A stretch of DNA of 64,000 nucleotides from NCBI GenBank assembly GCA_963816185.1, contig CAWFJJ010000029.1, forward strand, positions 403,353-467,352, in the 5' to 3' direction. This DNA is from Thermoanaerobaculia bacterium (GTDB lineage Bacteria > Acidobacteriota > Thermoanaerobaculia > UBA5066). A model generated the notes under the pieces. The model was not told where the DNA came from. It did no database searches and saw only the letters and a list, made by a program, of their open reading frames with translations. Positions 35,459-62,637 of this stretch are shown in pieces (the first letter of the stretch is position 1; the number at the start of each line of letters is the position of its first letter). Both the position numbers and the translations under genes were made by a program.

Positions 35459-35491
35459 ACAGCCCCCGGCAATTCCCATCGCGCCCCTCCA
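35459..35491 (-). repeat. IS481-like terminal repeat copy
   Basis: acagcccccggcaattcccatcgcgcccctcca, a variant of the repeat family. Confidence 0.8.
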
Positions 35492-35546
35492 GGATTCTTT
35501 GTAAGGATCATAGACTTACGCGCCTCGGGATCCGTAAACTGTCTTC

Positions 35547-36785
35547 GTGGAGACCGAAGAGCTAAATCGGCTGATCCGCTCCCTCAACGAGGACCGGTGG
35601 AAGGACGACGCGCCGGGCGAGGAGCGGATCGAGCTCGTTGGCGGCGACAACGCCCCGTCCGCCCCCGAGCCGGCCTTCCCCTCGCCAGAAACGGCCGCGG
35701 ACCTCGACGTGGCGCCGCGTCTAGCCGCGCTCCTTTCGGAGACCCTCCGGCGCGGCGGGACCGACCTCCTCCTCGTGCCCGGCGCTGCTCCTACGATCCG
35801 CATCCACGGCCTCCTGGAGGCCGCGACGGCGGACCGGGAGCCTCTAGTGAGCGCGACGGCATGGGAACTCCTGGTCGGAGCGCTCTCTCCTGAACGGCGC
35901 CGCCATCTCGCGGAGAGCGGATCGGTCGATTTCTCGCTGCGCCTCGCGGGCTTGGGCCGGTTCCGCGTCAACCTCCATCGCACGAGGAGCGGCGCGGCTG
36001 CAGCGCTGCGGGCGCTGCCGCGCCGCATCCCATCGCTCGCCGAGCTCGGCTTGCCGGTGTCGCTCTACGATCTGACAAAACCCTCGCGCGGCCTCATCCT
36101 CATGACCGGAACAACCGGCTCCGGCAAGACTACGACGTTGGCGGCGCTCGTCGACCACGTAAACCGCACCGAGCGCCGCCATGTCGTCACGATCGAGGAT
36201 CCGATCGAGTACGAGCATGCCCATGCCCGGTCGGTCGTGGAACAGGTGGAGGTGGGCGTGGACGCTCCCAGCTTCGCGACGGCTCTCGTGGCGGCCCTGC
36301 GCCAGGATCCCGACGTGATTCTCGTCGGCGAGATGCGCGATCTCGAAACCACGCGCACGGCCCTCACCGCCGCCGAGACGGGCCACCTCGTCCTCGCGAC
36401 GCTCCATACGAACGACGTGCCCCAGACGATTCACCGCATCGTCGACCTCTTCCCTTCCGAGCAGCAGGCTCAGGTGCGCCACCAGCTCTCGCTTGCCCTT
36501 GCCGCCGTTGTCTGCCAGCAACTCGTGCCGCGCAAGGACGGCTCGGGGCGCGCCGCCGCCGCTGAGGTACTCTTGGCGACGGACGCCGTCCGAGCGTTGC
36601 TTCGGAAGGGCGCGCTGCATCAGCTCCATAACGAAATGACCCTCGGGCGAAGACTCGGGATGATGACGGCCGAAGACTCGCTTGCCGGGCTCGTCAGGTC
36701 CGGGGCGATCTCGGAGGAGGACGCGCGCCTGAGGGCCTCGCACCCCGAGGACCTCGCCTCGCTCTTGCGCTCCGAGGGACGGTAG
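35547..36785 (+). CDS. pilT: PilT/PilU family ATPase
   Basis: GRFRVN, GTTGSGKTTT, TIEDPIEY, ALRQDPDVILVGEMRD, AETGHLV..TLH. Confidence 0.88.
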   Translation: METEELNRLIRSLNEDRWKDDAPGEERIELVGGDNAPSAPEPAFPSPETAADLDVAPRLAALLSETLRRGGTDLLLVPGAAPTIRIHGLLEAATADREPLVSATAWELLVGALSPERRRHLAESGSVDFSLRLAGLGRFRVNLHRTRSGAAAALRALPRRIPSLAELGLPVSLYDLTKPSRGLILMTGTTGSGKTTTLAALVDHVNRTERRHVVTIEDPIEYEHAHARSVVEQVEVGVDAPSFATALVAALRQDPDVILVGEMRDLETTRTALTAAETGHLVLATLHTNDVPQTIHRIVDLFPSEQQAQVRHQLSLALAAVVCQQLVPRKDGSGRAAAAEVLLATDAVRALLRKGALHQLHNEMTLGRRLGMMTAEDSLAGLVRSGAISEEDARLRASHPEDLASLLRSEGR

Positions 36786-36800
36786 AGCCGCTGGTTCCTG

Positions 36801-37472
36801 ATGGCGCGCGAATGTAAACTAACGTCGATGGTCGTCACCCGCATGAAACAGGCCGCCGGGTCCACAGAACTCCACTATGCCGTTCGCGCCCTTTTCCTCC
36901 TTGCTATCGCAGCGACATGCGTGTCATGTCGCCGGCCCAATCCGACCCAACAGGTTATCGAGGGCTGGCATACGCAGGCCCCCAGCGACAACGGGTTCGC
37001 CGTTCGCTTGGATGACGCTACGCATAATGGGCGTCGGATTGTCGTTCTCACGAATGAAAGAAGTGACGCAACGGGGATTGGTACGATCGTTCGAAGGATA
37101 CCTGCCGCACCTTATCGCGGCCGCCGCCTTCGGTTTTCCGCTCTCCTACGCACTAAGGACGTGATCCGGGGCGCAGCCCTCTGGATGCGGATTGACGGAC
37201 CCGATCGGCCAGTCGCGTTCGACAACATGCAAGACCGGCGTGTCCTGGGAACTGTCGATTGGACTCAATACAACATCGTCCTCGACGTGCCACCAAACGC
37301 GCAGGAGATCGCATACGGCGTCCTTCAAGTAGGCTGTGGTTCAACGTGGATCGACGGCGCAGCCGTCACCCCTGTTGGAAACGACTTCGCCCCCACGAAT
37401 AAGCTCACGGCGGCTCAGCTAGCAAAGCTTCCCCCGCCTTCCGGCAAGGAATGCGACTGTGACAAGAAGTGA
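36801..37472 (+). CDS. putative exported protein with beta-sandwich (CBM-like) domain
   Basis: YRGRRLRFSA...ALWMRIDG...FDNM..R...GT.DW..Y.IVLDVP..A..I.YG. Start uncertain. Confidence 0.65.
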   Translation: MARECKLTSMVVTRMKQAAGSTELHYAVRALFLLAIAATCVSCRRPNPTQQVIEGWHTQAPSDNGFAVRLDDATHNGRRIVVLTNERSDATGIGTIVRRIPAAPYRGRRLRFSALLRTKDVIRGAALWMRIDGPDRPVAFDNMQDRRVLGTVDWTQYNIVLDVPPNAQEIAYGVLQVGCGSTWIDGAAVTPVGNDFAPTNKLTAAQLAKLPPPSGKECDCDKK

Positions 37473-37977
37473 TCTTCCGTCGACCAAGTCGACACAAGAC
37501 GACGGGTCACGGATCTTCCGAAGCAGAGAGACTCAACCTACTCAGGATACTCCGCCCGATCTCGCTTTACCGAACGTGTCACCACTCTCCACGAGCATGA
37601 TCGCCGTTACTGTGATTCTCCTCGGTCTCGTCTTCGTGGTCCTTCCACTCCCTCGCCATGTCGAACTTTCTGCGCGCGTAGTGCACGCCAACGTCACCAC
37701 CAATACCTGCGAGGTAGAAGCTTCGCTCCTCCGGATGATCGATCTCGACTTAACGCCGCCGTTCTTCGCGCACGTTCGAGGAGCCGACGGGTCACCCGGC
37801 CACGACGCGACGGTCGTTAGCGTCACCCGCCATGCCGCCACCGGGAGAGCCGTCTCGTTCGTCATCTCTCAGTCGCGGTGTACGGCGCCACCACCAGTCG
37901 GATCGGAATTCCGCATTCGGTTCACTGACAAACCCGCTCCGGCGCTTAGAGATCCCAGCGGGCACCGGCCGGAATGA
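37459..37977 (+). CDS. small membrane-anchored protein, possible HlyD-like accessory
   Basis: Single TM segment; overlaps both neighbours; coupled to the transporter by ATGA. Confidence 0.5.
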   Translation: MTRSDLPSTKSTQDDGSRIFRSRETQPTQDTPPDLALPNVSPLSTSMIAVTVILLGLVFVVLPLPRHVELSARVVHANVTTNTCEVEASLLRMIDLDLTPPFFAHVRGADGSPGHDATVVSVTRHAATGRAVSFVISQSRCTAPPPVGSEFRIRFTDKPAPALRDPSGHRPE

Positions 37978-40160
37978 GCCTCCCCTGGCGGCTGACCATC
38001 GGCCGCAAGCACGTTCCCGTAGTCCAGGGATCGACCGAAAACGACTGCGGAGCTGCATGCCTTGCAATGATTCTCGCTCACTATGGGCGCTGGATCGGCC
38101 TCTCTGAACTGCGTGACGCCTGCGGTGCGGGCAGGGACGGCACCGATGCGCAGCGGCTCCTTCAGGTTGCGCGCCAACAGGGCCTAGCAACGAGTTATGA
38201 CACTCGGCTAGAGCCTAGCGACCTTTCTACTCGCAACGGTCCAGCCATTCTCCATTGGGACTACAATCATTTCGTTGTCCTCGAGGAAATCAGACAAGGG
38301 CGCGTATCGATCGTCGATCCCGCGAGAGGTCGTAGAAGTATCACGATCCGCGACTTGGACGCACACATCACAGGGGTGGCGCTGTTCTTTCGTCCATCGC
38401 CCACTTTTCAACGACGCCGCCGGCCTCGGCGCGTTCTATTGCCATACATTGCGCGTCTCCGGCAATATCGTCCCATTCTGCTCTCGTTGCTGGTTCTCGG
38501 AATACTGGGACAGCTCACGGCCATCGGTATAGCAAAGGCCACCCAAGTCGTAATCGACGAGTCTTTGGCACGGTCTGATCGGCGGCTACTGCACGTCCTC
38601 TTTGCCGGCCTTTCGGCCACTGCACTACTCCAAGGTTGGATGGCGGTCGTTAGGTGGAGACTTTTAGCCGTGTTTCGCACACGTCTGGATTGCGATCTCA
38701 CCCTTGAATTCTTTCGGCACCTCCTGGCCTTGCCGTTTAGCTTCTTCGAGCAGCACCCCATCGGCGACCTTGTGATGCGCCTGAGCAGTAACTACGCGGT
38801 TCGCGATCTCCTTTCCGAACGGATTCTAGGGGTGCTCCTAGAGGGCTTCATGGTGGTCGTCTTAGCCGCCGCGATGTTTGTTGTTAACCCGTGGTTAGGT
38901 CTTTTGACCGTTGGCACTGGCGTCCTGCGACTTGCGGCGCTTGGCGCAATTCGGCGCCGCCAGCGTGACCTCATGCAGCAGAGTCTTGAGGCGCAATCGA
39001 GAACGCAGTCGTGCGCTGTTGAGACGCTTCATGGTATTCTGGGCATCAAGGCAGAAGGTACTGAGGAACGGGCGTTCCAGCGATGGAACGTTCGCTTTCT
39101 GGAGCAACTGCGGATAACGGTAGCCCTAGGCCGCGTACAAGTATCCGCAGACGCGGTTCTCGCCGCGTTGGCCGTGGCGGGCCCAGCCGTTCTGCTTCTC
39201 TCTAGTGCCTTGCTAGTTATGGCCGAGCAGCTATCATTGGGTGGTTTGGTGGGCTTTGCTGCGTTGGCGGCGGCGTTTTCTTCCCCTCTGCAGTCGCTCG
39301 GCGGTACGTGGTCGGCCTGGGAGATGGCGGGAACCCATGTTGAGCGGCTGGCCGAGGTGCTGGAGACCGAGCGCGAAGGAACCGGGGAGCAAAGTCCTCG
39401 TATCGTGCGAGGCGGTATCACCTTCGAAGAGGTCTCTTTTCGGTACGGGCCGCGCGCACCACTAGTTCTCAATGCGTTATCCTTCAGGATAGAAGCTGGC
39501 GGCTATGTGGCGGTGGTGGGTCCATCAGGGTCCGGCAAGTCCACCCTTGGTAAAATGCTACTGGCACTCTACCTCCCTGAGGTCGGGCGGGTCCTCGTCG
39601 ACGACACTGACCTCCGCGAACTGAATCTCAAGGATTTCCGCATGCAGGTCGGCTCAGTAATGCAGGAAGCAGTATTGGCCAGCGGCCCGGTTCGCGAATA
39701 CATCGCCAGCGGCCGACCAGTATCCGACGAGGACCTTTGCTGGGCGGCCCAGATGGCCGAGATCCATGAGGATATTCTCGCCATGCCGCTCGGCTACCAC
39801 ACAATGATCGCGGAAAATGGCGCGAACTTTTCGGGTGGCCAACGACAGCGCCTTGCCATTGCACGAGCCGTCCTCAGGCGCCCGGCGATCCTCCTCTTTG
39901 ACGAAGCAACAAGTGCCCTGGACGCAAATACTGAGGAGCGAGTCTTTAACAACCTGTACCATCTAGGCTGTACGCGACTCCTGATGTCACACAGGTACTC
40001 GACCATCAGCCGCGCCTCTCACGTCCTCGTCCTCAATAAAGGGGTCCTCGAAGAAGCCGGGCCACCCCTCGACCTTTTGCGGCGGGGTGGATTGTACGCC
40101 CAGCTCTTTCACTCCGCCGCGCAAGGATCGAGCTTGCCCGCAGAGCGTGTCCAGAAGTGA
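37974..40160 (+). CDS. lanT: peptidase C39-containing ABC transporter
   Basis: Q....DCGAACLAMIL, HWDYNHFVV, D, TM domain, GPSGSGKST, FSGGQRQR, FDEATS. Confidence 0.92.
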   Translation: MSLPWRLTIGRKHVPVVQGSTENDCGAACLAMILAHYGRWIGLSELRDACGAGRDGTDAQRLLQVARQQGLATSYDTRLEPSDLSTRNGPAILHWDYNHFVVLEEIRQGRVSIVDPARGRRSITIRDLDAHITGVALFFRPSPTFQRRRRPRRVLLPYIARLRQYRPILLSLLVLGILGQLTAIGIAKATQVVIDESLARSDRRLLHVLFAGLSATALLQGWMAVVRWRLLAVFRTRLDCDLTLEFFRHLLALPFSFFEQHPIGDLVMRLSSNYAVRDLLSERILGVLLEGFMVVVLAAAMFVVNPWLGLLTVGTGVLRLAALGAIRRRQRDLMQQSLEAQSRTQSCAVETLHGILGIKAEGTEERAFQRWNVRFLEQLRITVALGRVQVSADAVLAALAVAGPAVLLLSSALLVMAEQLSLGGLVGFAALAAAFSSPLQSLGGTWSAWEMAGTHVERLAEVLETEREGTGEQSPRIVRGGITFEEVSFRYGPRAPLVLNALSFRIEAGGYVAVVGPSGSGKSTLGKMLLALYLPEVGRVLVDDTDLRELNLKDFRMQVGSVMQEAVLASGPVREYIASGRPVSDEDLCWAAQMAEIHEDILAMPLGYHTMIAENGANFSGGQRQRLAIARAVLRRPAILLFDEATSALDANTEERVFNNLYHLGCTRLLMSHRYSTISRASHVLVLNKGVLEEAGPPLDLLRRGGLYAQLFHSAAQGSSLPAERVQK

Positions 40161-40164
40161 TCGG

Positions 40165-41289
40165 ATGCGCCTAAGCGTGTCAAGAAAGCGCTGGACCTAT
40201 CTCGCCGCCGCGGTGGCCGGGACCTTCCTCATTGGTTCGGCGCTCCTGATTGGTGCGAAAGCGTTCGCCCCGCGCCCCGCCCCGCGCCCGGTCGTGCTTG
40301 CAAAGTACCGCGACGTCCGTGCGACGCTTCGGCTGTCGGGACGCGTCAAACCTCGAAAAGTCGCGGACGTGAAGTCGCCGGTATCAGGCAGACTAGTGAG
40401 GTTCCTAGTAGACGAAGGAATGACTGTTCGCCTGGGCGACGCGATTGCGGTGATTGAACCGGACCAAACACAGGCGCTCCTGATGGAGCAAGTCCGCGTG
40501 GACGTCCGATTGAAGCGCCTGACTCTGGAGCAGGCCGAGCGCAGCTACCAACGACTAGAGAGCTTGGGGGCTAGTGGCCTGGCTACTGCGGCCGATGTCG
40601 AGACCGCCCGCATCAGTTTCGACTCCGCGAGGGAGACGTTGGCCCTGGCGACTGCGCAGATGGCGATTCTGGAGCGCCAGACTCCCCAGAGTACGAATGC
40701 TTCAATAGGAGGCTTTCACGTCCTCGCGCCGGTATCAGGCACAGCCCTCCTTCAGCAGGTATCGCCTGGCGAGACGATTCTCGCGGGCACTGACGGATTG
40801 ACTAGTGGCGGTACCGTCCTGATGCGCATAGCCGATCTTTCCGAATATACCGTGCGAATCGATATAAACCAGATCGACGTTCTGCGGTTGCGCGTGGGCA
40901 TGCGTGCCGAGGTTCGCCCAGCCGGTCATCCCGGCGTGCTCCTCAAGGGGCACGTAACGCACGTGGGCGTTGAGGGCACTACCAGCCAAAACCTCACTAC
41001 CTATCGCGGCGCAATTGCACTTGACGAGCACGTTCCGCTGTTACCGGAAATGAGCTGCGATGTCGACGTCCTATTCGCGGACCGGCCAGGCGTGATTGCC
41101 ATTCCCCGAGCGGCGCTAATTCGAAACGCGAACGGTACGTTCGTATTAAAACAGGGCGCTGCAAGATCGACGCCTGTCTCCGTTGGCCTCGAAGGTGACG
41201 AGTTCGTCGAGATTACCGCCGGTGTTAACGCCGGTGATAACCTTACGATCGTCGCAGGTGGACTCAGTCCTGAACGGGCCGAACCATGA
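40165..41289 (+). CDS. efflux periplasmic adaptor, MacA-like
   Basis: N-terminal TM segment, V.SPVSGR, V.EG..V..GD, APVSG, IADLS. Confidence 0.85.
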   Translation: MRLSVSRKRWTYLAAAVAGTFLIGSALLIGAKAFAPRPAPRPVVLAKYRDVRATLRLSGRVKPRKVADVKSPVSGRLVRFLVDEGMTVRLGDAIAVIEPDQTQALLMEQVRVDVRLKRLTLEQAERSYQRLESLGASGLATAADVETARISFDSARETLALATAQMAILERQTPQSTNASIGGFHVLAPVSGTALLQQVSPGETILAGTDGLTSGGTVLMRIADLSEYTVRIDINQIDVLRLRVGMRAEVRPAGHPGVLLKGHVTHVGVEGTTSQNLTTYRGAIALDEHVPLLPEMSCDVDVLFADRPGVIAIPRAALIRNANGTFVLKQGAARSTPVSVGLEGDEFVEITAGVNAGDNLTIVAGGLSPERAEP

Positions 41290-42542
41290 TCGTTCTCGCG
41301 GTTCTCGAGGCAACGGTGGAAATGCGGCGGCATCCCCTTCGGACGCTGCTGACGTTGTCTGGAGTTATCATCGCGATAAGCACTGTTGTTGGCGTGGGTT
41401 CCATGCTCGGCTCGGCGCAGCGCCTCATCGGGCGTGTGCTATCCGAGACCGCCGGTTTGCGGAACATCACGATCACCTACAGGGAACAGCGCCGTCAAAA
41501 GGGTCGGTGGGTGCAGGCCCGGCTACCAAACCCCCTTTCTCTGGGGGACTCGGCGGCGGTTCGCGAAAGCCTGGGTCAACAGGTAGAACGCACGTCTTTG
41601 CAGGCAACGCTATCGGCGGTGATGACCCGCTCTGGGGCGATCGCGCGCGACGCGCGGGTATTGGCTGTCGAGCCGGAGTACTTTGAAATGTTCAATCGTC
41701 GCCTTTTAGCAGGCCGCCTCCTCGGCGCGGCAGATGTCAACGGGGCGAACCTCGTCGCCGTCATTGGTGAACACGCTGCCAAGGCGTTTTTCGGCGGCGA
41801 CGAGGTCGCAGGGGCGGAAGTGCGTTTGAACGACACGCGAGTCCTCGCTGTCGGCGTAGTCAGCGACGGTATGCTTGGAGAGGGGGAGGCCATTGACGTC
41901 TTCTTGCCGATATCGGCAGCCCGGTTTCGGTTTCCGACGCCGTCGGGCCGGACCGCCCCGACGTTTTTGCATGTGCAGACTGCCGAAGATGTCGATGTCG
42001 AGAGCTTCAAGACTACAGTGCTGGCGACAATTCTCGATCGCCATCCCGAATATGGCCGTGAGGACTTCGATATTTTGACAGCAGAGCGAGATCGGCGGCA
42101 AGCAGAGGATGCGATGGTTCTGATCGCGTTACTCTTCTCCGTCATCGCGGGTCTTTGCTTGCTTACCGGTGGTGTCGGCATAATGAACGTGCTGCTAGCA
42201 GCAGTCGTGGAGCGCACGCGGGATATTGGGATTCGCCGGGCGCTCGGAGCTCGCGCGCGCGATATCTTTCGGCAGGTTTTAGTTGAGTCCCTTTGTCTGA
42301 CCGGTCTAGGGGGACTTTTCGGAATCGGCCTAGGCTATCTTCTAGGGCATGCGTTAGCGGGCATTCTCAATTTAGTCATGAAGCTCGGCGAGGACACGCC
42401 ATTTCGACTCACACCCGCACTCGATTCGCGAATCCTTGTCTTGGCCGTCGTTACGAGTTTGTCTGTCGGAGTATTCTTTGGCTTGTATCCCGCGATTCGA
42501 GCGAGTCGCATGGAGCCGGCCGAGGCACTTAGGGTTGAATAG
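41286..42542 (+). CDS. MacB/FtsX-type ABC permease without ATPase domain
   Basis: LRTLLT..GVII, GGVGIMN, V.ERTRDIGIRRALGA, FFGLYPA.RAS...P.EALR.E. Confidence 0.88.
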   Translation: MIVLAVLEATVEMRRHPLRTLLTLSGVIIAISTVVGVGSMLGSAQRLIGRVLSETAGLRNITITYREQRRQKGRWVQARLPNPLSLGDSAAVRESLGQQVERTSLQATLSAVMTRSGAIARDARVLAVEPEYFEMFNRRLLAGRLLGAADVNGANLVAVIGEHAAKAFFGGDEVAGAEVRLNDTRVLAVGVVSDGMLGEGEAIDVFLPISAARFRFPTPSGRTAPTFLHVQTAEDVDVESFKTTVLATILDRHPEYGREDFDILTAERDRRQAEDAMVLIALLFSVIAGLCLLTGGVGIMNVLLAAVVERTRDIGIRRALGARARDIFRQVLVESLCLTGLGGLFGIGLGYLLGHALAGILNLVMKLGEDTPFRLTPALDSRILVLAVVTSLSVGVFFGLYPAIRASRMEPAEALRVE

Positions 42543-51360: not shown

Positions 51361-51413
51361 GATAGCAGCTGGGCCTGCTGGATTCGGTCGCGCGAAGCGC
51401 GCGTGATGGCTCG

Positions 51414-52330: not shown

Positions 52331-52400
52331 CGCTCCACAGGCCCCCGGCAATTCCCATTGCGCCCCTACAGCCCCCGGTAATTCCCACTGCGCCCCGACA
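52331..52400 (-). repeat. tandem IS481-like terminal repeats
   Basis: Two head-to-tail copies ending at 52370 and 52400. Confidence 0.85.
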
Positions 52401-53372: not shown

Positions 53373-53541
53373 ACTGGGCAGTGTCGAAGCGGCGAAACGT
53401 CCTCAACCGACCGTCATTAACGCAGAAGCATTTGGTTTCATCTGTAGGGACGCAATGGGAAATGCCGGGGGCTATGGCGCGCACAGACCAGGGTCATGCC
53501 CTGGGTTTCCTTCTGAATCCCGTCCCGCAGATGTGTAGGGG

Positions 53542-53892
53542 TGTAGGGGTGCAATGGGAATTGCCGGGGGGGTGTGGCGCGTGAAACCGGAGCCATTCCG
53601 CCCTTTTCTCGCTGCGGCCCCGGCAGAGGTCTACTTCGGACGGACGCCATCCCACCTTTCGGCGATCCCACCTCCGCGCGGCAGGCCGGGCGAAGGCCCG
53701 ATGGATTCACCGTTTCGCGTCGAGTATCTCGATGCGGAGCGGATGCTGCCGATACTGGTTCGAAAAGCAGCCTGAAGGGTGGTCGCCCTGGGAAAGCGTC
53801 GGTCGAGGTGTGCGCGCACGGAGGTGTCGTAGTGACCCAGAGGCTGGCCCGTCCCCGCCAGCGCACGCCGCAATTCCCATTGCGCCCCTACA
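53542..53892 (+). mobile_element. non-autonomous ~350-bp internal-deletion derivative of the IS481-like element
   Basis: TGTAGGGG...CCCCTACA ends enclose only the transposase 3' tip (PAEVYFGRTP...VRKAA). An extra repeat sits at 53443 and an octamer stub at 53534. Confidence 0.85.
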
Positions 53893-54225: not shown

Positions 54226-56637
54226 ATGACGACGAACGATTCAGGCGGTCTGCCCTCCGACGCGGAGCCGACCGTCGACCGTGATCCGTCGCATCCGCCT
54301 GCGGTCGCGGCTACCTTGTCGCTGCCGAGCGAGATCGGGGGGTTCCGCATCCTCGCGAAGCTCGGCGAGGGCGGAATGGGCATCGTCTACGAGGCCGAGC
54401 AGCAGAGCCCGCATCGGAGAGTCGCCCTCAAGGTCGTGCGCGGCGGGCACTTCGTCGACGACCAGTACCTCCGGATGTTCCGGCGCGAGACCGAGACGCT
54501 GGCCCGGCTCACTCACCCGAACATCGCGGCGCTCTACGAGGCAGGGCGCACGGATGACGGTCAGCACTTCTTCACGATGGAGCTGGTCCTCGGCGAGACG
54601 CTCGCGGCGTGGGCCAGGAAGAACCTCGGCGGCGACGCGCCCAGTCCTTCGCAGATCCGAGAGCGCCTGCGCCAGTTCGTCGCCATCTGCCAGGCCGTCA
54701 ACTACGCGCACCAGCGCGGCGTCATCCACCGCGACTTGAAGCCCTCGAACATCGTTGTGACGGACGCGGGCGCCAAGATCCTCGACTTCGGACTCGCGCG
54801 CATCACGGACGCGGACGTGGCGGCTGCCACGGTGATGAGCGAGGTCGGCGCGATCCAGGGAACGCTGCCGTACATGAGCCCGGAGCAGGCACGCGGTGAC
54901 AGCCGGGACGTCGACCTCCGGACCGACGTCTACTCGCTCGGCGTCGTCCTCTACGAGCTGCTCTCGGGGATTCTGCCCTACAGCACGCGGGCCATGCCGG
55001 TGGTGCAGGCGATTCGCGTCATCTGCGAGGAGCCGCCCAAGTCGCTCGACCTCGATACCGACCTCCAAACGATCGTGATGAAGGCGCTCGAGAAGGAGCC
55101 GGACGGCCGCTACCAGAGCGCCGCGGCCCTCGCCGAGGACGTCGAGCGGTACCTCGCGGACCAGCCGATCCTCGCGCACCCTCCGAGCACGCTTTACCAG
55201 CTGAAGAAGCTGGTCGCCCGGCACACGGCGAGCTTCGTTGCGGCGGGCGTGATCGCGATCCTGCTCGTGACGCTGGGCGTGACGATGGTCGTGCAGGCCG
55301 GGCGCGTGAGAAAGGAGCGGGACCGGGCGACGGCCGAGGCCGCGAAGGCGAGCGCGATCAACGCGTTCCTCCTCGACGCGCTGGGCGCGGCCGACCCGTG
55401 GTCGAAAGGCTCGCGCAACGTGTCGCTCCTCGACGCGCTGCGTCAGGCGCAGGACAAGGCGGTGACGTCTTTCGCGGGCCAGCCGCTCGTCGAGGCGTCC
55501 GTGCTCCAGACGATCGGGACGACGTTCTCGAACCTCGCGGATTTCCCCGAGGCGGAGAAGGCGCTGAAGGCGGCGCTCGCGCTGCGCGTGAAATCGGCAG
55601 GGCCGAAGAGCGCCGAGGCCGGCGAATCGCACGCGGCGCTTTCGGGCATGTACTCGCTCTGGCGGAAGTTCGACGATGCGGAGACGCATGCCCGCGAGTC
55701 GCTCGACATCACACGCGAGCGCCACGGGGCCGCGAGCCTCGACGCCGCCGCGGCGATGAACGAACTCGGAATGGCGCTCGTCGGAAAGACGAAGGTCGGG
55801 GAGGCGAAGGCCATCGGCGGGGTGATGATGAAGATCGTGACGAGCGGGCGCCGCGGCGCGCCGGAGCCCGGAAGACCGGATCCGGCGAAGGTCGAGGTGG
55901 ACGCGCTCCTCATCCTCTTCCAGGCCGCGCTCGCCGAGGAGGACTATCCAACTGCCCTCGCGCTCGCCCGCCAGCGGCTGGCGCTTTCGAAGAAGAGAGT
56001 CGGAGACCGCCACCCGGAATTCGCACAGGCCCTGAACGACGTCGCCCTCGGCCAGATGTATACGGGCGACCTCCCGGGCGCCGAGCGCACGTATCTCGAG
56101 GTCATCGACCTGGACATCGCGCTTTTCGGCGAGGACCACCCGGAGGTCGCGTCCGCGCGCGAGAACCTCGGGAACGTCTATTTTCGCGGCGGCGAGCTGG
56201 ACAAGACCGCGAAGAACCTCGAGGTTGTCCTCGCGATGCGAAGGAAGGCGCTCGGCGACGACTCGGAGCCCGTGGCGCAAACGATGGCGAACATGGCCAC
56301 GGTCTACTGGAAAGCCGGAAACGACGAGGCGGCCGTGAAGAACTACCGCGAAGCGATCGATCGTCTCTCGCAGAAGCTCGGGCCCGAGCATCTCTACGTC
56401 GGGAGGCTCCTCGGGGGCATGGGCGACTCGCTCCGGAAGCTCGGGAAGTACCCGGAGAGCGAGGCCGCGCTCGAGCGCTCGCTCGACATCCAGGTGAAGG
56501 CGGTCGGCGAGGACAACGTGGCGACGCAGAGGACGATCAAGTCGCTCGCCGCGCTCTACGCCGACTGGAAAAAACCCGCCCAGGCGGCCACATACACCGC
56601 GAGGCTGAAGCCGGAGGGGAAGGCGGCGGGAAAGTAG
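54226..56637 (+). CDS. Ser/Thr protein kinase with TM segment and TPR repeats
   Basis: GEGGMGIVY, VALK, HRDLKPSN, DFG, GTLPYMSPEQ; kinesin-light-chain-type TPRs (GEDHPEVA). Confidence 0.92.
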   Translation: MTTNDSGGLPSDAEPTVDRDPSHPPAVAATLSLPSEIGGFRILAKLGEGGMGIVYEAEQQSPHRRVALKVVRGGHFVDDQYLRMFRRETETLARLTHPNIAALYEAGRTDDGQHFFTMELVLGETLAAWARKNLGGDAPSPSQIRERLRQFVAICQAVNYAHQRGVIHRDLKPSNIVVTDAGAKILDFGLARITDADVAAATVMSEVGAIQGTLPYMSPEQARGDSRDVDLRTDVYSLGVVLYELLSGILPYSTRAMPVVQAIRVICEEPPKSLDLDTDLQTIVMKALEKEPDGRYQSAAALAEDVERYLADQPILAHPPSTLYQLKKLVARHTASFVAAGVIAILLVTLGVTMVVQAGRVRKERDRATAEAAKASAINAFLLDALGAADPWSKGSRNVSLLDALRQAQDKAVTSFAGQPLVEASVLQTIGTTFSNLADFPEAEKALKAALALRVKSAGPKSAEAGESHAALSGMYSLWRKFDDAETHARESLDITRERHGAASLDAAAAMNELGMALVGKTKVGEAKAIGGVMMKIVTSGRRGAPEPGRPDPAKVEVDALLILFQAALAEEDYPTALALARQRLALSKKRVGDRHPEFAQALNDVALGQMYTGDLPGAERTYLEVIDLDIALFGEDHPEVASARENLGNVYFRGGELDKTAKNLEVVLAMRRKALGDDSEPVAQTMANMATVYWKAGNDEAAVKNYREAIDRLSQKLGPEHLYVGRLLGGMGDSLRKLGKYPESEAALERSLDIQVKAVGEDNVATQRTIKSLAALYADWKKPAQAATYTARLKPEGKAAGK

Positions 56638-56916
56638 CGGCACTGGCGGCTGGAGTTACGCGCGCCTCCGGCCCTCATGCGGCGCCATCGTCAATGCCAG
56701 CCTCCGGACCACCGCGCTCTGAGCAACCCACCCGGGGATCAGAGAGGAAAGGGGCCGGTTTCTCGAACCTAGAACCTCCGAGCGGGTGTAGGGGTGCAAT
56801 GGGAATTGCGGTGGGCGCTGGCGCGACAGACCCAATTCATCTGGGGTGGCACTTTTCAGAGCCTCCCGACGCATGCCCCGCAACCGCTTCCATCCGAAGA
56901 GGATCTTGTCCTGAGA

Positions 56917-57190: not shown

Positions 57191-57320
57191 TGTAGGGGCG
57201 CAATGGGAATTGCGGCTCGCCCTGGCGCGCTGAAACCATCGTTTCGCGTCCTGCTCCTCCGCTCGGCACGCACACGTCGTCACACTCCAGCGCCCTTGGC
57301 TGGGCTTTCGTGACCGCCCT

Positions 57321-58566
57321 TCAGGCTGCTTTTCGAACCAGAACCGGCAGCAGCCGTTCCGCATCGAGATACTCGATGCGAAACGGTGAATCCATCGGGC
57401 CTTCGCCCGGCCTGCCGCGCGGAGGCGGGATCGCTGACAGATGCGACGGCGTCCGGCCGAAGTAGATCTCCGCCGGCGTCGCACCGCCGAGCGCCTGATG
57501 CGGGCGGAAGTGCGCGTAGTGGACGAGGCCGAGCTCGACCGTCGCGGCGAGATCTTCCGCTGCCGAGGGCCGCAGCAGGCGCAGGCCGAGCGTGTCCTTC
57601 AGCGTCCTCCACAGCCTCTCGATCAGAGCGATCGAGCCCTTCTTACCGACCGCTCCGAACCTCTGCTTCACCCCGAGCCATAGCAGCTTCCGGCGAAAGA
57701 TCTGGCCCGTGAAGCAGCGGGCCTCGATCCGAAACGAAGTGCGCCGGCCGCCCATGCCTCTTCGCCGCCCTCGAGACAAACCGGGCGATCTCACGGCGAA
57801 GAAGCCTCCTTGGAGAACACCCTGACCGAGAGTGGCATTCGCGAGAACGCATCGAAGACGACCGCGACCTTGAACGTCACGATCCCGAACAGGCCTTTCA
57901 CGTCCGTCAGATCCACCATCCAGACGTGATTCGGGCGCTTTGCCCTCACGGCTCGCGGAGACCGTCGAGGCTGCTTCCGGGACGCGCGGCACTGGCCAGC
58001 GCTCCTTGCGGATCCGTCCCTACCGTCCGTGCCGACAGCTTCCAGCCCGCGCGGGCCAGCGTCCGTGCGATCAGATCGTTTCCACCGAACCCGGCCAGCT
58101 CCATCGTCTTGACCACGGCTCTGACCACGTCGGCGAAGCGCCGGACGGGAGGATTCGGTGCAACCAGGGGACGTGGGGCCTCTCCGTCGGCGCTCGTCGT
58201 CTCCATCTCCCACCGTGCGATCGTCTCGACCGACACTCGAAACATCGCCGCCGTCTCGCGTTGCGACAGGCCGAGGAAACTCCTGATCCGCAGGATCCGG
58301 AAGCGCTGCTCTGGCGCGTAATGCGGGCGATGGCGTTCGGGCACCTTGTCCCAGCGCGCCCCGAGGATCGCAGCAGCCTCGCGCGTCATCCTGAGGAGCA
58401 GGGCCTGCTCCTCGGCCTTTTCGAACATCCTCGCCGCCGTCACACCCGAGTCGCGCAGCTTCCCGAGCGCCGAGCCGAGGGCGAGGCCGAAGAGGTGCGA
58501 GGCGCGCAGGAGGGCGGGCAGCGCCGCCGGAGAACTGCCGCCTCGCGGCGGTCGGGAAGAGTGCAT
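57321..58566 (-). pseudogene. IS481/IS3-like rve transposase, full span but frameshifted
   Basis: VWMVDLT, FVSDRG, IERLWRTLK, RPHQALGGATP distributed over several frames. Confidence 0.88.
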
Positions 58567-58607
58567 GAAGGGCCCCCGCCCGGCCAGAATGCCCGTCTAC
58601 GGGGCCC

Positions 58608-59144
58608 CTATTTCGACGGCTCCACGCCGAGCGCGAACGTCAGGTCGAAGGCCTCGGTATTGGGCGAGCGTTTGGCCGATGCGTTTCTTGTCGCGTACGC
58701 GCCCTCGATGCGCTTGCCATCGTTCTTCGTCAGCTTGAGGTTCGCCGCGTCGGTGCGCGAGTGCGTGCCGCCGGCGTCGAACACCTGGACGTTGTAGGGC
58801 GTGCCGTCGTACTTGATCTTCAGCTCGACCAGCGTGGTGAAGCCCTTGCCGACCTGGTGGGTCAGCTCACGACATGGATTGGCTGCCGCCTTGAGCGCGG
58901 CCTTGTCCATCGGGCCGTTCGAGAACGCCACCACCGTGATGAGTTTGCCGTCGTTGAGGATGTCGTCTTCGGTGCACGCGTACGAATCCGTCAGCGCGAC
59001 AGGCTTGCCGTGGTTGTAGTACGTGCTTGGGGCAGCGGAGGCCGGCGCGGCCACCATCAATACGGCCATCGCACACTCGAAGACAAACACCGTCCGTCTC
59101 GGAAGCGTCATGATCAGATCCCTCCTTCTCGCGATGCGGCTCAT
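58608..59144 (-). CDS. secreted hypothetical protein, duplicated cargo copy 2
   Basis: Near-identical to 50824-51360. Confidence 0.75.
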   Translation of the reverse strand: MSRIARRRDLIMTLPRRTVFVFECAMAVLMVAAPASAAPSTYYNHGKPVALTDSYACTEDDILNDGKLITVVAFSNGPMDKAALKAAANPCRELTHQVGKGFTTLVELKIKYDGTPYNVQVFDAGGTHSRTDAANLKLTKNDGKRIEGAYATRNASAKRSPNTEAFDLTFALGVEPSK

Positions 59145-59220
59145 GATAGCAGCAGGGCCTGCAGGTTCAGACCATTCTGGAGCTCGCGAATCGCGTCGTT
59201 ATGAGCGCACGACGAATGGA

Positions 59221-59922
59221 TCAATTCTCCTTGCCGACGAGTTGTACGGCGTCGATTTCGTTCCAGCCAGGCACGACGTTTGTCGCGAGCGTGACCTTGA
59301 TGCGGTCAGTCTTGTAGGTCGTCTTCGCGAACTTAAGGAGGAGGTAGTTCAGGTCCTTGGTCGGGTCGTTGCCTGCCCAGACCACGTGAGGCGTGCCCTT
59401 TTCGTCGAAGAGTTCCACCCTGATGACGGCGCCCGATCCACAGGATTCGCGGATTCGCGCTTCAGTGGCAAAGATCGGTTTCGGGAATGTCAGCTCCAAC
59501 CATTCGATGCCGCCATCTGGGGTCTTCGGTGCCCAGGCCCTCCCGTCGTCTCCGTACTTCTCTACGTTGGGTGCGCCAGTGGCCTGATTGGCCGACCATG
59601 CCGCGGCGCCTTGAGCATCGTTATAGGACGAGGATGCCTTGGCCTGGATGGCCCACTGGCCGTCGGGATCGTTCTTGATGGCGTCCTGCTTGAGCGCCCA
59701 TTCAGCGCCTGCCATCTTCGCCGTGGTCTCCGCCCCGGCTCCTCCGAGACCAGCCTCAGTGTTTCCGGGGGACGCCGCGACGGGGGCCGGTGCGGGCGCC
59801 GAAGAGTTCACCGCCGGACTGCTCGTCACCGGGGCAGCCGTTTCTGGACCCTTGCGGCAACCAGCGACGAGTAGGCACGCGAAAACAACGGCGGCGGGCC
59901 GGTGCCGAAGACGATCGTTCAT
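59221..59922 (-). CDS. lipoprotein with discoidin/galactose-binding-like domain
   Basis: Lipobox LVAGC; QWA..A.ASS.Y, ATGAPN, AWAP, EWLEL.F, WNEIDAVQL. Confidence 0.7.
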   Translation of the reverse strand: MNDRLRHRPAAVVFACLLVAGCRKGPETAAPVTSSPAVNSSAPAPAPVAASPGNTEAGLGGAGAETTAKMAGAEWALKQDAIKNDPDGQWAIQAKASSSYNDAQGAAAWSANQATGAPNVEKYGDDGRAWAPKTPDGGIEWLELTFPKPIFATEARIRESCGSGAVIRVELFDEKGTPHVVWAGNDPTKDLNYLLLKFAKTTYKTDRIKVTLATNVVPGWNEIDAVQLVGKEN

Positions 59923-60267
59923 GTTCGTTCTCCTCTTCGAAATCGAGAGGCATTCTAGCCGACGAAGAAACATGAAAGGCCCCGCCGGGCCAGAATGCCC
60001 GTCTACCGGGCGGGTTCAAGACACCTCGGCGGCACCGAGAAAGAGACAGAATGGCTCCGGTTTCACGCTCCACAGGCCCCCGGCAATTCCCATTGCACCC
60101 CTATAGGACCCGGCAATTCCCATTGCGCCACTACAGCATGCTCCTTCTCGAGTGCGTCCTCACGCTCACGGTCACGGAGACGTTCGGAAAGGCCGCGCCG
60201 GCCTAGGCCCCGGAAGACGTCTGGGGCAGCATCGAGCTCCAGAATGCGATGATAGGATTCGTCCGTC

Positions 60268-60540: not shown

Positions 60541-60819
60541 ACATTCTTGACCCCTTCCCGAAATGCGCATTCTAGAAGCGCGTCGACGAGGTCTCGGACG
60601 GCGATGGCTATCCCTCGGTGAGCGACCGAACGGTCATCATCGGCCTCGGCTCGGCGGCGAAGGCTGACGCCGTCGACGTCCGCTAGCGGGACAGCACGAC
60701 AGATCTCCGAACGAGGGGCAGCCCGTCACGCGCGCCCAGCAGTTGCTGTGCTGCTTGAAGCGCGTCGGAAAGCGCCTGGCGCGGACCCTCCGACCTCACT
60801 TCGTCGCCTGAGCTGCGGT

Positions 60820-62274
60820 GTGCGCTATCTTTCGTCGCGGAGACGCGGCTTGAAGAGGATTCCGGCCCGGTTCGATCCCGTCGAAGAGAGGCTGGCTTTC
60901 GGGAAGAGCCGCCGCCGCGCGCTGCCTCGCAGCGACCAGGGCAAATGGAAAACATGGGACGGACGACCGGACATACTGGCGACGCTACTGAAGGCGAGCC
61001 GCGGGCGTCTTCCCGAGCTCCTGCCCATCAAGTGGGGAAGGATGGCGGCCTCTCCCTTCGGGTTCTTTCGCGGCGCCGTGCCGGCCATGGCGCTCGATCT
61101 CGCCCGGTCGTCGGTGACCGGCGTGCACGTCCAGATGTGCGGCGACGCGCACGTGCGCAACCTCGGCGCCTTCGCGGCGCCCGACGGCCACCTCGTCTTC
61201 GACATCAACGACTTCGACGAGACGATGCCCGGGCCCTGGGAGTGGGACGTCAAGCGCCTCGCGGCCAGCCTCGTCCTCGCCGGCCGCGAGGCGGGAGATG
61301 GCGACCCGCTCTGTGCCGAAGCGGTCGGGGAGTTCGTGTCCTCCTATCGCGGAGCCCTGAAGGAATTCGCCGCGATGTCAGCGCTAGATCTCGCGCGGTT
61401 CGAGATCCGTCGATACCGCCGTGGCCCAGTGACGCGAATCCTGGAAAAGGCTGAACGCGCGACGCCTTTGCATTCGCTCGAGAAGCTCACGGTCTTTGCG
61501 CGCGGGGGTCTCCGACGGTTCCCCAAGCGCCCGCCCCTGCTCCAACCTCTCGAACCGCGTAAAGCGAAACGTGTCATGGGCTCGTTGAAGGCGTATCGCG
61601 ACACCGTGAGCGACGACCGGCAGCTCGTCCTCGACGCGTATTGCCTCGTCGACGTCGCCTTCAAGGTGGTCGGGACAGGAAGCGTGGGGACGCGCGACTA
61701 CGCCGTTCTCGCGTTCGGGGATGGGGCGGACCATCCCCTGTTTCTCCAGGTCAAGGAGGAACCGCCCTCGAGCTACGCCTCCGTCCTTCCCCGTGTGGTC
61801 TGCCCTCCCCACGAGGGGCGGCGCGTCGCGCAGGGACAGCACCGGATGCAGACCGTGTCAGACCCGTTCCTCGGCTGGACGACGTTGACGGGCCGCCACT
61901 ACCTCGTACGTCAGCTCGCGGATCACAAGGCCTCGATCGAGCCGGCAGAGCTGAGCGGCCTCGCGCTGAAGGAATACGCACGGGTTTGCGGAGAGGTACT
62001 CGCGAAGGCGCACGCGCGTACCGGCGACGCCGCGATTTTGTACGGCTATTGCGGCGACACCAACCGCCTCGATCGCGCGATGGGAAGGTTCGCGATCGCC
62101 TATGCCGACCAGACCGAATCTGAATCCGCCTTCGTGAGGCGATCAAGGCCGGAAAAATCCGGGCACAAGGGGAATTTGACCCCGGTCAGAGAGCGTCCTG
62201 GAGAGCGGCGTATTTTCTTAGAGGCCCGATCCTCGCCAGTCATCAGCGGCTATCATCAAGGTGGCTCTGTCTGA
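60820..62274 (+). CDS. DUF2252 family protein; C-terminus possibly frameshifted
   Basis: RMAASPFGFFRG, CGDAH..N.G, FDINDFDE, PWEWDVKRL, KVVGTGSVG, LQVKE, LAKAHARTGD. Start approximate. Confidence 0.85.
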   Translation: MRYLSSRRRGLKRIPARFDPVEERLAFGKSRRRALPRSDQGKWKTWDGRPDILATLLKASRGRLPELLPIKWGRMAASPFGFFRGAVPAMALDLARSSVTGVHVQMCGDAHVRNLGAFAAPDGHLVFDINDFDETMPGPWEWDVKRLAASLVLAGREAGDGDPLCAEAVGEFVSSYRGALKEFAAMSALDLARFEIRRYRRGPVTRILEKAERATPLHSLEKLTVFARGGLRRFPKRPPLLQPLEPRKAKRVMGSLKAYRDTVSDDRQLVLDAYCLVDVAFKVVGTGSVGTRDYAVLAFGDGADHPLFLQVKEEPPSSYASVLPRVVCPPHEGRRVAQGQHRMQTVSDPFLGWTTLTGRHYLVRQLADHKASIEPAELSGLALKEYARVCGEVLAKAHARTGDAAILYGYCGDTNRLDRAMGRFAIAYADQTESESAFVRRSRPEKSGHKGNLTPVRERPGERRIFLEARSSPVISGYHQGGSV

Positions 62275-62289
62275 GCCTCGAGGAGTTTC

Positions 62290-62502
62290 ATGATCGAAGG
62301 CCTGTTTCAACCGATGCACCTTCTTCTCATCCTGATCATCGCCACGCTCGTTTTCGGACCGAAGAAGCTGCCGGAGCTCGGCAAGAAGATATGGCAAGGA
62401 ATCCGAGGCTTCAGGGACGCGATCAAGAACGCGGAGACGGGGGCGAGCGCGGACGACCCGAACGCTTCGAGCGATCCTTCAGCCCAGATCGAGAAAAAGT
62501 AA
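62290..62502 (+). CDS. tatA: twin-arginine translocase TatA/E subunit, copy 2
   Basis: MIEGLFQPMHLLLI..LVFGPKKLPELGK; AGGAG Shine-Dalgarno. Confidence 0.85.
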   Translation: MIEGLFQPMHLLLILIIATLVFGPKKLPELGKKIWQGIRGFRDAIKNAETGASADDPNASSDPSAQIEKK

Positions 62503-62597
62503 CCGCCATCTTCCCATTTTCTTGCGGCGCATCGACCGTGCGAGGCGCTACTCACGAGCCGTCGTCGAAGTGTATGGAGCGACGATTTAGATGGACC

Positions 62598-62637
62598 TGT
62601 AGGGGTGCAATGGGACTTGCCGGGGGGCTGTGGCGCA
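62598..62637 (+). repeat. IS481-like terminal repeat copy
   Basis: tgtaggggtgcaatgggacttgccggggggctgtggcgca. Confidence 0.8.

What the first reader, a model, noticed from the sequence alone, without database searches (positions are those of the whole stretch)
35459..62637. About 15 IS481-like terminal repeats partition 27 kb into cargo blocks
Seen: the motif TGTAGGGGYGCAATGGGAATTGC has outer ends at 35491, 46979, 50339, 50567, 50798, 52370, 52400, 53892, 60104 and 60135 in reverse orientation, and at 53443, 53542, 56787, 57191 and 62598 in forward orientation. Only two sizeable transposase copies exist, both broken, and I saw no full copy of the motif in the first 35 kb. The first seven copies are co-oriented and fall at module borders: pilT plus the lanthipeptide cluster lies between 35491 and 46979, and the attC array plus tatA between 46979 and 50339. 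Inference: repeated one-ended or end-targeted transposition builds an integron-like array of passenger blocks, which would make the lanthipeptide cluster mobilisable.
Basis: partly seen in the sequence, partly recalled or inferred. Interest (0 to 1): 0.7.

Follow-up and report, generated by a model that had tools for sequence, protein, structure and literature searches.

The report
Co-oriented nest of insertion-sequence ends
The repeated motif is the end of a jumping gene family that keeps landing, in one direction, next to its own older ends, so that it riddles one variable stretch of this soil bacterium's genome; I found no sign that it moves the neighbouring genes as cassettes.

Summary

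The motif is the outer 23 bp of the roughly 45-50-bp terminal inverted repeat of a distant IS481/IS3-like DDE insertion sequence. It is about 1.44-1.53 kb long and has one 406-427-aa transposase. Internal-deletion (MITE-like) derivatives and truncated ends also occur.

The copies are strongly clustered.
- In this genome 48 of 48 lie on one contig end and three short pieces.
- In a 10-contig relative 23 of 24 lie in one 64-kb zone.

Elements are co-oriented: 22 of 23 ends in that relative. Left ends outnumber right ends 115 to 50.

Insertion is register-specific.
- New ends sit exactly 30 bp inside older ends, in 14 of 31 close same-strand pairs.
- Otherwise they tend to sit 10 bp after a TG word resembling the repeat's own inner part, often a TGA stop codon.

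End-targeted nesting is therefore supported. Cassette-like mobilisation of the lanthipeptide cluster or the other blocks is not shown. The scan has notes on register-specific IS481-like elements in other genomes, none on this motif.

The parts
35453..35491 (-). solo left-end (L) stub, 39 bp; last IS end of the zone towards the tRNA-Asn side
   Evidence: matches positions 1-39 of the reference IS and MITE
35547..36785 (+). cargo: T2SSE/PilT-like ATPase
   Evidence: PF00437, E 4e-49
37974..45750 (+). cargo: class II lanthipeptide cluster (C39-ABC exporter 37974-40160, HlyD 40087-41289, MacB/FtsX 41286-42542, LanM 42436-45750), antisense to the flanking L ends
   Evidence: GC 0.58-0.63 against about 0.67-0.70 in the first 20 kb; no close LanM ortholog in 28 congeners
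46933..46979 (-). solo L stub, 47 bp
47591..49310 (+). four attC-like sites (starts 47591, 48114, 48742, 49251) with small minus-strand ORFs between them; a cassette array without an integrase
   Evidence: no integron integrase in the genome (best 74 bits against a cut-off of 265)
49997..50227 (-). cargo: tatA paralog (one of four in the zone pieces)
50317..50339 (-). L stub (homology ends after about 27 bp) inserted inside a transposase 5' fragment
50340..50567 (-). L end with 5' leader and first part of the transposase gene (IS positions 1-272)
50761..50798 (-). L stub, 38 bp, 23 bp downstream of the stop of passenger ORF 'A' copy 1
50827..51360 (-). passenger ORF 'A' copy 1 (178 aa, no family; 96.6% identical to copy 2)
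51412..52400 (-). tandem L-L (30-bp offset), leader and N-terminal two thirds of the transposase (IS positions 1-1003); terminator-like hairpin at 52302-52287
53443..53529 (+). L stub, 87 bp
53542..53892 (+). 351-bp MITE-like deletion derivative (L end joined to the last ~280 bp with the R end)
54226..56637 (+). cargo: Ser/Thr kinase with TPR repeats, lying between two outward-facing right (R) ends
   Evidence: paralogs on C2 (90%) and C6 (81%)
56787..56832 (+). R-end stub, 46 bp
57191..60135 (-). 2,945-bp unit bounded by an R end (57191) and tandem L-L ends (60105, 60135). It holds a broken transposase (57321-58566, three ORF pieces), passenger ORF A (58608-59144) and passenger ORF X (59221-59973). 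The R end abuts a host gene truncated by deletion.
60748..62274 (+). cargo: DUF2252 protein
62290..62502 (+). cargo: tatA paralog
62598..64000 (-). second, related IS (IS-B). Its end at 62598-62637 has the same terminal motif. Its transposase is broken into two ORFs (62858-63226, 63211-63894). It runs to the end of the window, which is the end of the contig.

Best explanation
The motif is the tip of the terminal inverted repeats of a genus-specific, distant IS481/IS3-like DDE insertion sequence family, seen here with its MITE-like deletion derivatives and many truncated ends. The 27 kb are part of one IS-riddled plasticity zone that begins behind tRNA-Asn.

Inferred mechanism:
1. The transposase recognises a word resembling the inner part of its own repeat (..A.TGCCGG..).
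2. It places an incoming end one helical turn (10 bp) downstream, in a fixed orientation.
3. New copies therefore land at position 30 of older ends, or just behind TGA(C)-type words such as stop codons.
4. This self-targeting would explain both the confinement to one zone and the shared orientation.
5. Later recombination between nested copies and IS-mediated adjacent deletions strip off transposase genes and right ends. What remains are solo left stubs between ordinary accessory genes.

On this reading the cargo blocks are genes trapped between insertions, not cassettes moved by the ends. The anatomy, clustering, registers and orientation are shown. Recognition by the transposase and the order of events are inferred.
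For: **Identity of the element**
- An intact 427-aa ORF on C6 matches NCBIfam IS481 over the whole model (95 bits) and Pfam rve, rve_3 and HTH_3.
- Relative G003 has two intact copies of 1,437 and 1,534 bp, with L and R ends in inverted orientation.
- 479 protein clusters are related; the top 120 are at least 72% identical.
- L..R deletion derivatives of 95-671 bp are present.

**Clustering**
- 48 of 48 hits lie in four contig pieces of G000.
- 23 of 24 lie in G003:C7:639410-703799, and 6 of 7 in a 16-kb stretch of G021.
- The motif occurs in 15 of 24 congeners and in 0 of 16 genomes of other genera.

**Register**
- Of 31 same-strand neighbour pairs within 200 bp, 14 are exactly 30 bp apart, plus one each at 29 and 31. 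Only one opposite-strand pair lies that close.
- TG sits at -10 in 43 of 162 unique non-nested flanks, against a mean of 7.75 (maximum 13) at 28 other offsets.
- A stop triplet sits at -10 in 27 of 162 flanks, against at most 12 at any other offset.
- The flank consensus resembles repeat positions 17-30.

**Orientation**
- G003: 22 of 23 ends.
- G000 C12: 19 of 20. Window: 11 of 15.

**Decay**
- Inner truncation points of 115 L ends spread from 26 to 300 bp. Twenty of them fall at 26-33 bp.
- The R end at 57191 abuts a gene that continues in relatives; the remainder is not found in G000.

**Precedent**
- IS30 inserts into hot spots or next to its own inverted repeats, and its IR-IR junctions cause deletions that start at an IR tip (PMC9333248, abstract and passages).
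- IS481, IS3 and IS30 tend to lie on the lagging strand (PMC3971601, passages).
Against: - No target-site duplication is visible at any of the 39 L/R pairs examined, nor at the two intact G003 copies. A DDE element should make one, so either all flanks have been reshuffled or the true termini or mechanism differ from what I assume.
- The excess of left over right ends (115:50) is only partly explained by nesting plus recombination.
- On C12, 7 of 7 family-supported genes between 14 and 28 kb follow a co-oriented L end, with no right end in that stretch. That looks more orderly than random decay.
- The L/R classifier and the gene caller are home-made. Several ends score low.
- G000 is a metagenome bin with 3.4% contamination. 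C12 duplicates the last 6.4 kb of the window at 97.4% identity, so some copies may come from a co-assembled strain.
Confidence: 0.62

Rival explanations
1. Active gene capture: the ends do move the blocks. Junctions formed between distant co-oriented copies, or a left end used with surrogate right ends (one-ended transposition), carry intervening genes into the nest. The zone would then be a transposase-built, integron-like array, and the lanthipeptide cluster a mobilisable block.
For: - The unit 57191-60135 is bounded by proper L and R ends and holds two passenger ORFs besides the transposase. It is present twice, in the window and on C12.
- Passenger A, tatA and the kinase genes occur as 2-4 paralogs within the zone pieces.
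- On C12, L ends precede co-oriented genes 7 of 7 times between 14 and 28 kb.
- Left ends are in excess.
- IS30 is reported to join inverted repeats of two distant copies (PMC9333248, abstract).
Against: - No block was found twice with the same two borders.
- No surrogate right end or target duplication is seen.
- The lanthipeptide cluster lies antisense between two direct left stubs of 39 and 47 bp, with no right end.
- Ends also abut deletion-truncated genes.
Confidence: 0.18
2. Host-selected stubs: the left-end units persist because they act for the host or for the element. Possible roles are transcription terminators or promoters between foreign genes, or decoy binding sites that soak up transposase and draw insertions into a harmless zone.
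For: - Two La-type left units in the window carry a terminator-like hairpin with a T run (52302-52287, 50503-50485).
- Ends sit just behind stop codons: 17 of 82 inward-reading flank genes stop within 15 bp.
- Left ends are in excess.
- There is one zone per genome in the two better assemblies.
Against: - No sigma-70-like promoter was found in the scanned L units (0 found).
- Stub lengths vary from 26 to 300 bp, with no common functional core beyond the repeat tip.
- No expression data are available.
Confidence: 0.08
3. Assembly artefact: the array is produced by collapsed or chimeric joins at a repeat in a mixed-strain metagenome bin.
For: - All zone pieces end at contig ends or are short contigs.
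- C12 and the window overlap at 97.4% identity.
- In G009, G013 and G017 the motif lies mostly on short contigs.
Against: - The same clustered, co-oriented pattern lies inside a 718-kb contig of a 10-contig genome (G003) and a 201-kb contig of G021.
- Mismatch-free contigs of public runs bridge the ends at 50339, 53892 and 60105/60135 into their flanks (table 8). These runs may include the source sample.
- Stubs are shorter than typical reads and differ in sequence.
Confidence: 0.04

Closest known systems
IS481 family insertion sequences (IS481, IS1002 and relatives; IS3/IS481 group of DDE transposons)
   Same: A single un-frameshifted HTH plus rve transposase. The best NCBIfam model is IS481, aligned over its whole length. 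The repeats start with TGT. Size is about 1.4-1.5 kb.
   Different: The score is far below the family cut-off (95 against 224 bits). The transposase is longer (406-427 aa) and has an XRE-type HTH. No NCTAGN-type target and no target duplication were found; that IS481 makes a 6-bp duplication is recalled, not looked up. ISfinder could not be consulted.
IR-targeting of IS30 (dual target specificity: hot spots or its own inverted repeats)
   Same: New copies land at the ends of older copies. Such junctions trigger deletions starting at an IR tip and a spread of rearrangements (PMC9333248, abstract and passages). Here there are 30-bp tandem ends and an end abutting a truncated gene.
   Different: IS30 inserts next to the IR tip. 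Here insertion is 30 bp inside the repeat, 10 bp after an internal word, and always in direct orientation. The transposase belongs to another family. Nothing was tested biochemically.
MITEs and other transposase-less derivatives of bacterial IS
   Same: L..R pairs of 95-671 bp made of the two IS ends with the middle deleted.
   Different: Most copies here are single ends, not pairs (L 115 to R 50). No target duplication is seen.
IS26-type arrays (directly oriented IS copies separating resistance-gene blocks)
   Same: Directly oriented copies of one element alternate with cargo blocks in one region.
   Different: IS26 arrays contain whole IS copies and arise by a targeted conservative reaction of an IS6-family transposase (PMC7986276, search listing only; otherwise recalled). 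Here the separators are mostly 30-100-bp stubs of one end, from a different transposase family.
Integron cassette arrays (attC-bounded cassettes, including arrays without integrase)
   Same: A real four-site attC array lies inside the region, and the L array on C12 looks similar at first sight.
   Different: The L units have no R''/R' core sites and no attC-like palindrome. No integron integrase is present. The associated enzyme is a DDE transposase.

Membership tests
IS481 family | DDE (rve) transposase scoring above the curated family model | tested here: not met
   NF033577 gives 95.1 bits against a cut-off of 224. It is the best-scoring family and covers model positions 2-284 of 284. IS3 gives 76.7 bits against 160.
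IS481 family | single transposase ORF without programmed frameshift, flanked by terminal inverted repeats beginning TGT | tested here: met
   ORFs of 406, 413 and 427 aa lie between L and R ends; the repeats start with TGTAGGGG.
IS481 family | short target-site duplication flanking each insertion | tested here: not met
   There is no consistent duplication at the 39 L/R pairs or the two intact copies. A few imperfect 8-9-bp matches were seen. Flank reshuffling could hide duplications.
MITE-like non-autonomous derivatives | both IS ends in inverted orientation around a short non-coding remnant | tested here: met
   Window 53542-53892, C2:10205-10299, C12:35403-36073, and more than ten in relatives.
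IR-targeting IS (IS30-like behaviour) | insertions preferentially at the element's own ends | tested here: met
   Of 31 close same-strand pairs, 14 are at exactly 30 bp, plus one each at 29 and 31. In all, 57 of 165 ends have TG at -10, and 15 of those lie inside another end. Behaviour is inferred from genomes only.
Integron cassette array | cassettes bounded by attC sites and an intI integrase with attI | tested here: not met
   The L units are not attC. The best hit to TIGR02249 is 74 bits against 265. A separate four-site attC array does exist at 47591-49310.
IS26-type pseudo-compound array | complete, directly oriented IS copies shared between adjacent cargo units | tested here: not met
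   Separators are mostly stubs of 26-100 bp. No intact copy is present in the window.
One-ended transposition (ISEcp1-like use of surrogate right ends) | left end plus cargo ending at a degenerate right-end-like sequence, with a target duplication around the whole unit | tested here: inconclusive
   No right-end-like sequence or duplication was seen at the far side of L-cargo blocks on C12 or in the window. No systematic search for degenerate surrogate ends was made.

The most novel reading that the evidence does not exclude
The transposase reads a word of its own repeat in the target and inserts one helical turn downstream in a fixed direction. The family thereby confines itself to a single co-oriented nest per genome, which would be a self-made safe harbour. 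Junctions between distant co-oriented copies then carry intervening genes into that nest. The nest would work as a transposase-driven gene-capture array, a functional analogue of an integron without an integrase, with the lanthipeptide cluster as one captured block.
Probability: 0.17. Interest if true: 0.7.

Novelty: new variant of a known kind. Interest (0 to 1): 0.42.

Why it matters
It shows how one insertion-sequence family can shape a single hypervariable zone in uncultured soil Acidobacteria. That zone holds much of the accessory gene load: a lanthipeptide cluster, kinases, c-di-GMP enzymes and an attC array.

The exact 30-bp and 10-bp registers give a simple hypothesis that can be tested at the bench: the transposase is aimed by a word of its own repeat. 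If that is right, self-targeting alone can explain why a mobile element stays in one harmless region and in one orientation. It also warns that such zones break metagenome assemblies and inflate apparent cassette structure.

Tried and rejected
- **Target-site duplications.** I compared 12-bp flanks of 39 L/R pairs and of two intact copies and found no consistent repeat.
- **Empty sites.** I blasted 150-bp outer flanks of all ends against all held sequence. Most 'empty' hits were other IS or leader copies. The one clear case showed a deletion-truncated gene rather than a simple insertion.
- **Promoter in the L unit.** The scan found 0 sigma-70-like sites.
- **RNA families.** Only the tRNA was found in the window, and nothing in C12:14000-16000 at E up to 1.
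- **Circles or joints in public runs.** Only low-depth contigs were on hand. Contigs cannot show circles, and joints at 90% likeness come largely from related organisms.
- **Lanthipeptide cluster borders in relatives.** There is no close LanM ortholog.
- **Synteny of the zone.** There is no nucleotide match between the window's core 21 kb and the G003 or G021 zones, and no tRNA there. However, one zone flank is 97% identical between G003 and C12.
- **Replication-strand bias.** The GC-skew sign puts the transposase on the lagging strand in G000, G003 and G021, but the skew is weak.
- **Gene finding.** Two first attempts, by GC3 rules and by an untrained codon model, mis-called strands and were dropped. 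The model recovered the family-supported genes, except that the MacB/FtsX gene was dropped by its overlap rule.
- **Earlier scan notes.** None exist on this place or sequence.
- **ISfinder.** It could not be consulted.


Full report
**Observation**

The motif occurs 15 times in the window at up to 3 mismatches, against none expected. None lies before 35469.

The stated borders hold:
- A PilT-like ATPase and a class II lanthipeptide cluster (C39-ABC exporter, HlyD, MacB/FtsX, LanM) lie between the copies at 35491 and 46979.
- Four attC-like sites and a tatA paralog lie between 46979 and 50339.

**What the motif is**

Reading outward from each copy shows two kinds of unit.

The L kind continues for about 95-110 bp into the leader and start codon of a gene. 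The R kind lies about 110 bp behind that gene's stop, in inverted orientation. The two share about 45-50 bp.

The gene is intact on C6, at 427 aa. It matches NCBIfam IS481 over the whole model at 95 bits, far below the cut-off of 224. IS3 comes next at 77 bits, and Pfam gives rve, rve_3 and a weak HTH_3.

Relative G003 has two intact elements of 1,437 and 1,534 bp, with ORFs of 406 and 413 aa.

The protein family is large in public data. There are 479 clusters, the top 120 at 72-100% identity, mostly on short contigs and named only 'InsO family' or 'DDE-type'.

Internal-deletion derivatives with both ends are common, 95-671 bp long.

A second, related IS with the same tip occupies 62598 to the end of the window. 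'IS481-like terminal repeat' is therefore a fair name, but by the curated score this is not a member of the family.

**Anatomy of the window**

A blast of intact references onto the window gave these IS-derived pieces:
- Solo L stubs at 35453-35491, 46933-46979, 50317-50339, 50761-50798 and 53443-53529.
- An L end with a transposase 5' fragment at 50340-50567.
- A tandem L-L pair with two thirds of the transposase at 51412-52400.
- A 351-bp MITE-like element at 53542-53892.
- An R stub at 56787-56832.
- A 2,945-bp unit at 57191-60135, bounded by R and L-L ends. It holds a broken transposase and two passenger ORFs of no known family, X and A.

The island starts behind tRNA-Asn (20990-21064). 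A broken large serine recombinase and phage-like genes follow, up to about 35 kb.

**Distribution**

The window ends at the end of contig C29. All 48 genomic hits lie in four places:
- C29's last 28.5 kb (15 hits).
- The 46.7-kb contig C12 (23 hits).
- The 20.9-kb contig C2 (5 hits).
- C6 (5 hits, four of them in its last 5.2 kb).

C12's last 6.4 kb is a 97.4% inverted copy of the window's last 6.4 kb. Three ends may therefore be counted twice, and C12 may be a strain variant or a second copy.

The motif is restricted to the genus: 15 of 24 congeners have it, and 0 of 16 genomes of other genera in the order. Counts reach 107, 79 and 65 copies, mostly on short contigs.

Two better assemblies show the same clustering inside long contigs, so it is not an assembly artefact:
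- 23 of 24 hits lie in G003:C7:639410-703799, in a 718-kb contig of a genome with 10 contigs.
- 6 of 7 hits lie in G021:C12:169649-185723.

Mismatch-free contigs of public soil runs bridge three of the window's ends into their flanks (table 8). Those runs may include the source sample.

**Orientation and end ratio**

I sorted ends into L and R by alignment to consensus units, a home-made classifier. An element's orientation follows from its ends: an L end on the plus strand or an R end on the minus strand both mean plus.

| Sequence | Ends in the majority orientation |
|---|---|
| G003 zone | 22 of 23 |
| G000 C12 (without the duplicated end) | 19 of 20 |
| Window | 11 of 15 |
| G021 | 4 of 6 |

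My notebook says 23 of 24 for G003; 22 of 23 is the recount from the output.

L to R counts in the sampled sequence are 37:11 (G000), 31:15 (G009), 27:19 (G013) and 20:5 (G017), which sums to 115:50. In G003 the count is 13:10.

**Registers**

Two sharp regularities emerged from 191 ends (G000 plus 27 loci of relatives).

1. *Tandem ends.* Among 31 same-strand neighbour pairs within 200 bp, 14 are exactly 30 bp apart, with one each at 29 and 31. Only one opposite-strand pair is that close.
2. *TG at -10.* In 162 unique flanks not lying in another end, TG stands at -10/-9 in 43 cases. The mean at the other 28 offsets is 7.75 and the maximum 13. A stop triplet stands at -10 in 27 cases, against at most 12 at any other offset.

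The flank consensus (A at -13, T G C C G G from -10 to -5, C or G at -1) resembles positions 17-30 of the repeat itself. That is exactly what precedes a nested end.

With my codon-model gene caller, the outer flank gene reads toward the end in 82 cases and away from it in 42. Seventeen of the 82 stop within 15 bp, and seven have the stop at -10 to -8.

My reading is that incoming ends are placed 10 bp behind a repeat-like word in a fixed orientation. Such words survive where insertion does no harm, namely in older ends and at TGA stop codons.

**Decay**

- Inner truncation points of 115 L ends run from 26 to 300 bp. The only cluster is 20 ends at 26-33 bp, the nesting register.
- No target duplication is seen at 39 L/R pairs or at the two intact copies.
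- The R end at 57191 abuts a gene that continues uninterrupted in two relatives and in a loose end of run X3. The remainder of that gene is not found in G000. This indicates an adjacent deletion.
- Passenger ORF A occurs twice in the window at 96.6% identity, each time followed by an L end but preceded by different DNA.
- tatA occurs four times with different neighbours.
- The kinase gene recurs on C2 and C6. On C6 the neighbouring ends differ from the window's, and on C2 no copy of the motif lies within 4 kb of it.

**Test of the cassette idea**

On C12 the picture is orderly. Between 14 and 28 kb, 7 of 7 family-supported genes follow a co-oriented L end: cytochrome c-like, kinase, Usp, GT41, epimerase, GGDEF-EAL and a tail-tube-like protein. 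Several stop within a few bases of the next L end.

Elsewhere in the zone genes lie antisense to the L ends:
- the lanthipeptide cluster;
- a methyltransferase;
- an LpxL-like gene;
- glyoxalase and AraC.

Three further points weigh against the idea.
- No block has a right end.
- No block recurs with the same pair of borders.
- LanM has no close ortholog in 28 congeners (best 32% identity), so its borders cannot be compared.

The L units are not attC sites, and the genome has no integron integrase. L ends do sometimes lie in or beside attC-like sites.

I therefore keep active capture as a rival at about 0.18. IS30 gives it a mechanistic precedent, because it joins repeats of distant copies (PMC9333248, abstract).

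**Comparison with known systems**

- IS30 has a dual target choice: hot spots or its own inverted repeats. Its IR-IR junctions generate deletions starting at an IR tip (PMC9333248, abstract and passages). This is the closest known behaviour.
- The difference here is the fixed internal register and the strict direct orientation.
- A survey of IS orientation reports a lagging-strand tendency for IS3, IS6, IS30 and IS481 (PMC3971601, passages).
- By GC-skew sign the transposase genes here lie on the lagging strand in G000, G003 and G021, but the skew is weak.
- That IS911 also targets repeat-like sequences is recalled, not looked up.
- Earlier notes of this scan describe IS481-like elements in other genomes that home in fixed register and orientation to promoters or tRNA ends. 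I did not test those, and none concerns this motif.

**Verdict**

It is a new lineage with an unusual variant of end-targeting that builds one co-oriented nest per genome.

The integron-like reading and the mobility of the lanthipeptide cluster are not shown.

Three points remain open:
- the missing target duplications;
- the excess of left ends;
- the orderly C12 array.

Noticed in passing
window 47591-49310; also G000 C24:733347-740760, C25:603988-605720, C28:279116: Classic attC-like sites (about 60-90 bp, with RYYYAAC and GTTRRRY cores) form small cassette arrays at several IS-rich places, although no integron integrase reaches the family cut-off anywhere in the genome.
   Followed up: partly
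C12:15445-15660 and 24115-24260 (L010, L011); window 53891-54001; many MITEs of relatives (e.g. L025:4563-5194): A conserved module of about 215 bp follows many left ends. It is sometimes duplicated inside MITE-like elements and sometimes sits upstream of Ser/Thr kinase genes. It holds only a 16-29-codon ORF, and the copy scanned (C12:15445-15660) matches no Rfam family at E up to 1. It may be a structured RNA or the leader of a third IS subfamily.
   Followed up: partly
window 20990-35400: tRNA-Asn is followed by a large serine recombinase split into two ORFs (22251-23321, 23122-23793), a kinase, and DUF2130, ParB-like, DNA methylase and terminase-like genes. This looks like a decayed integrative or phage-like element next to the IS zone.
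   Followed up: partly
window 57570-64000 against C12:46698-40267; window 34039-34675 against C2:1354-2694: The end of the window is repeated, inverted, at 97.4% identity on C12. The zone's left border region recurs at 82-91% identity on C2. Either large duplications exist or a second strain was co-assembled into the bin.
   Followed up: partly
window 49997-50227, 62290-62502; C2:12588-12806; C12:41764-41983: Four tatA-like paralogs (70-76 aa), at 77-90% nucleotide identity among the distinct copies (the C12 copy lies in the 97.4% duplicate of the window's end), all lie inside the IS zone pieces.
   Followed up: no
window 52302-52287 and 50503-50485 (minus strand): One subtype of left-end unit carries a terminator-like GC hairpin with a T run between the repeat and the transposase start. 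This would shield the transposase gene from read-through.
   Followed up: no
G003:C7:667588 flank against C12:4338-4485; G003:C7:668843 flank against C12:3241-3354: Flanks of IS ends next to a PP-binding/thioesterase gene are 94-97% identical between two different species of the genus. Parts of the zone are therefore either an old shared locus or were exchanged recently.
   Followed up: no
window 52887-53369: A lone Hcp (type VI secretion tube) gene sits between IS ends.
   Followed up: no
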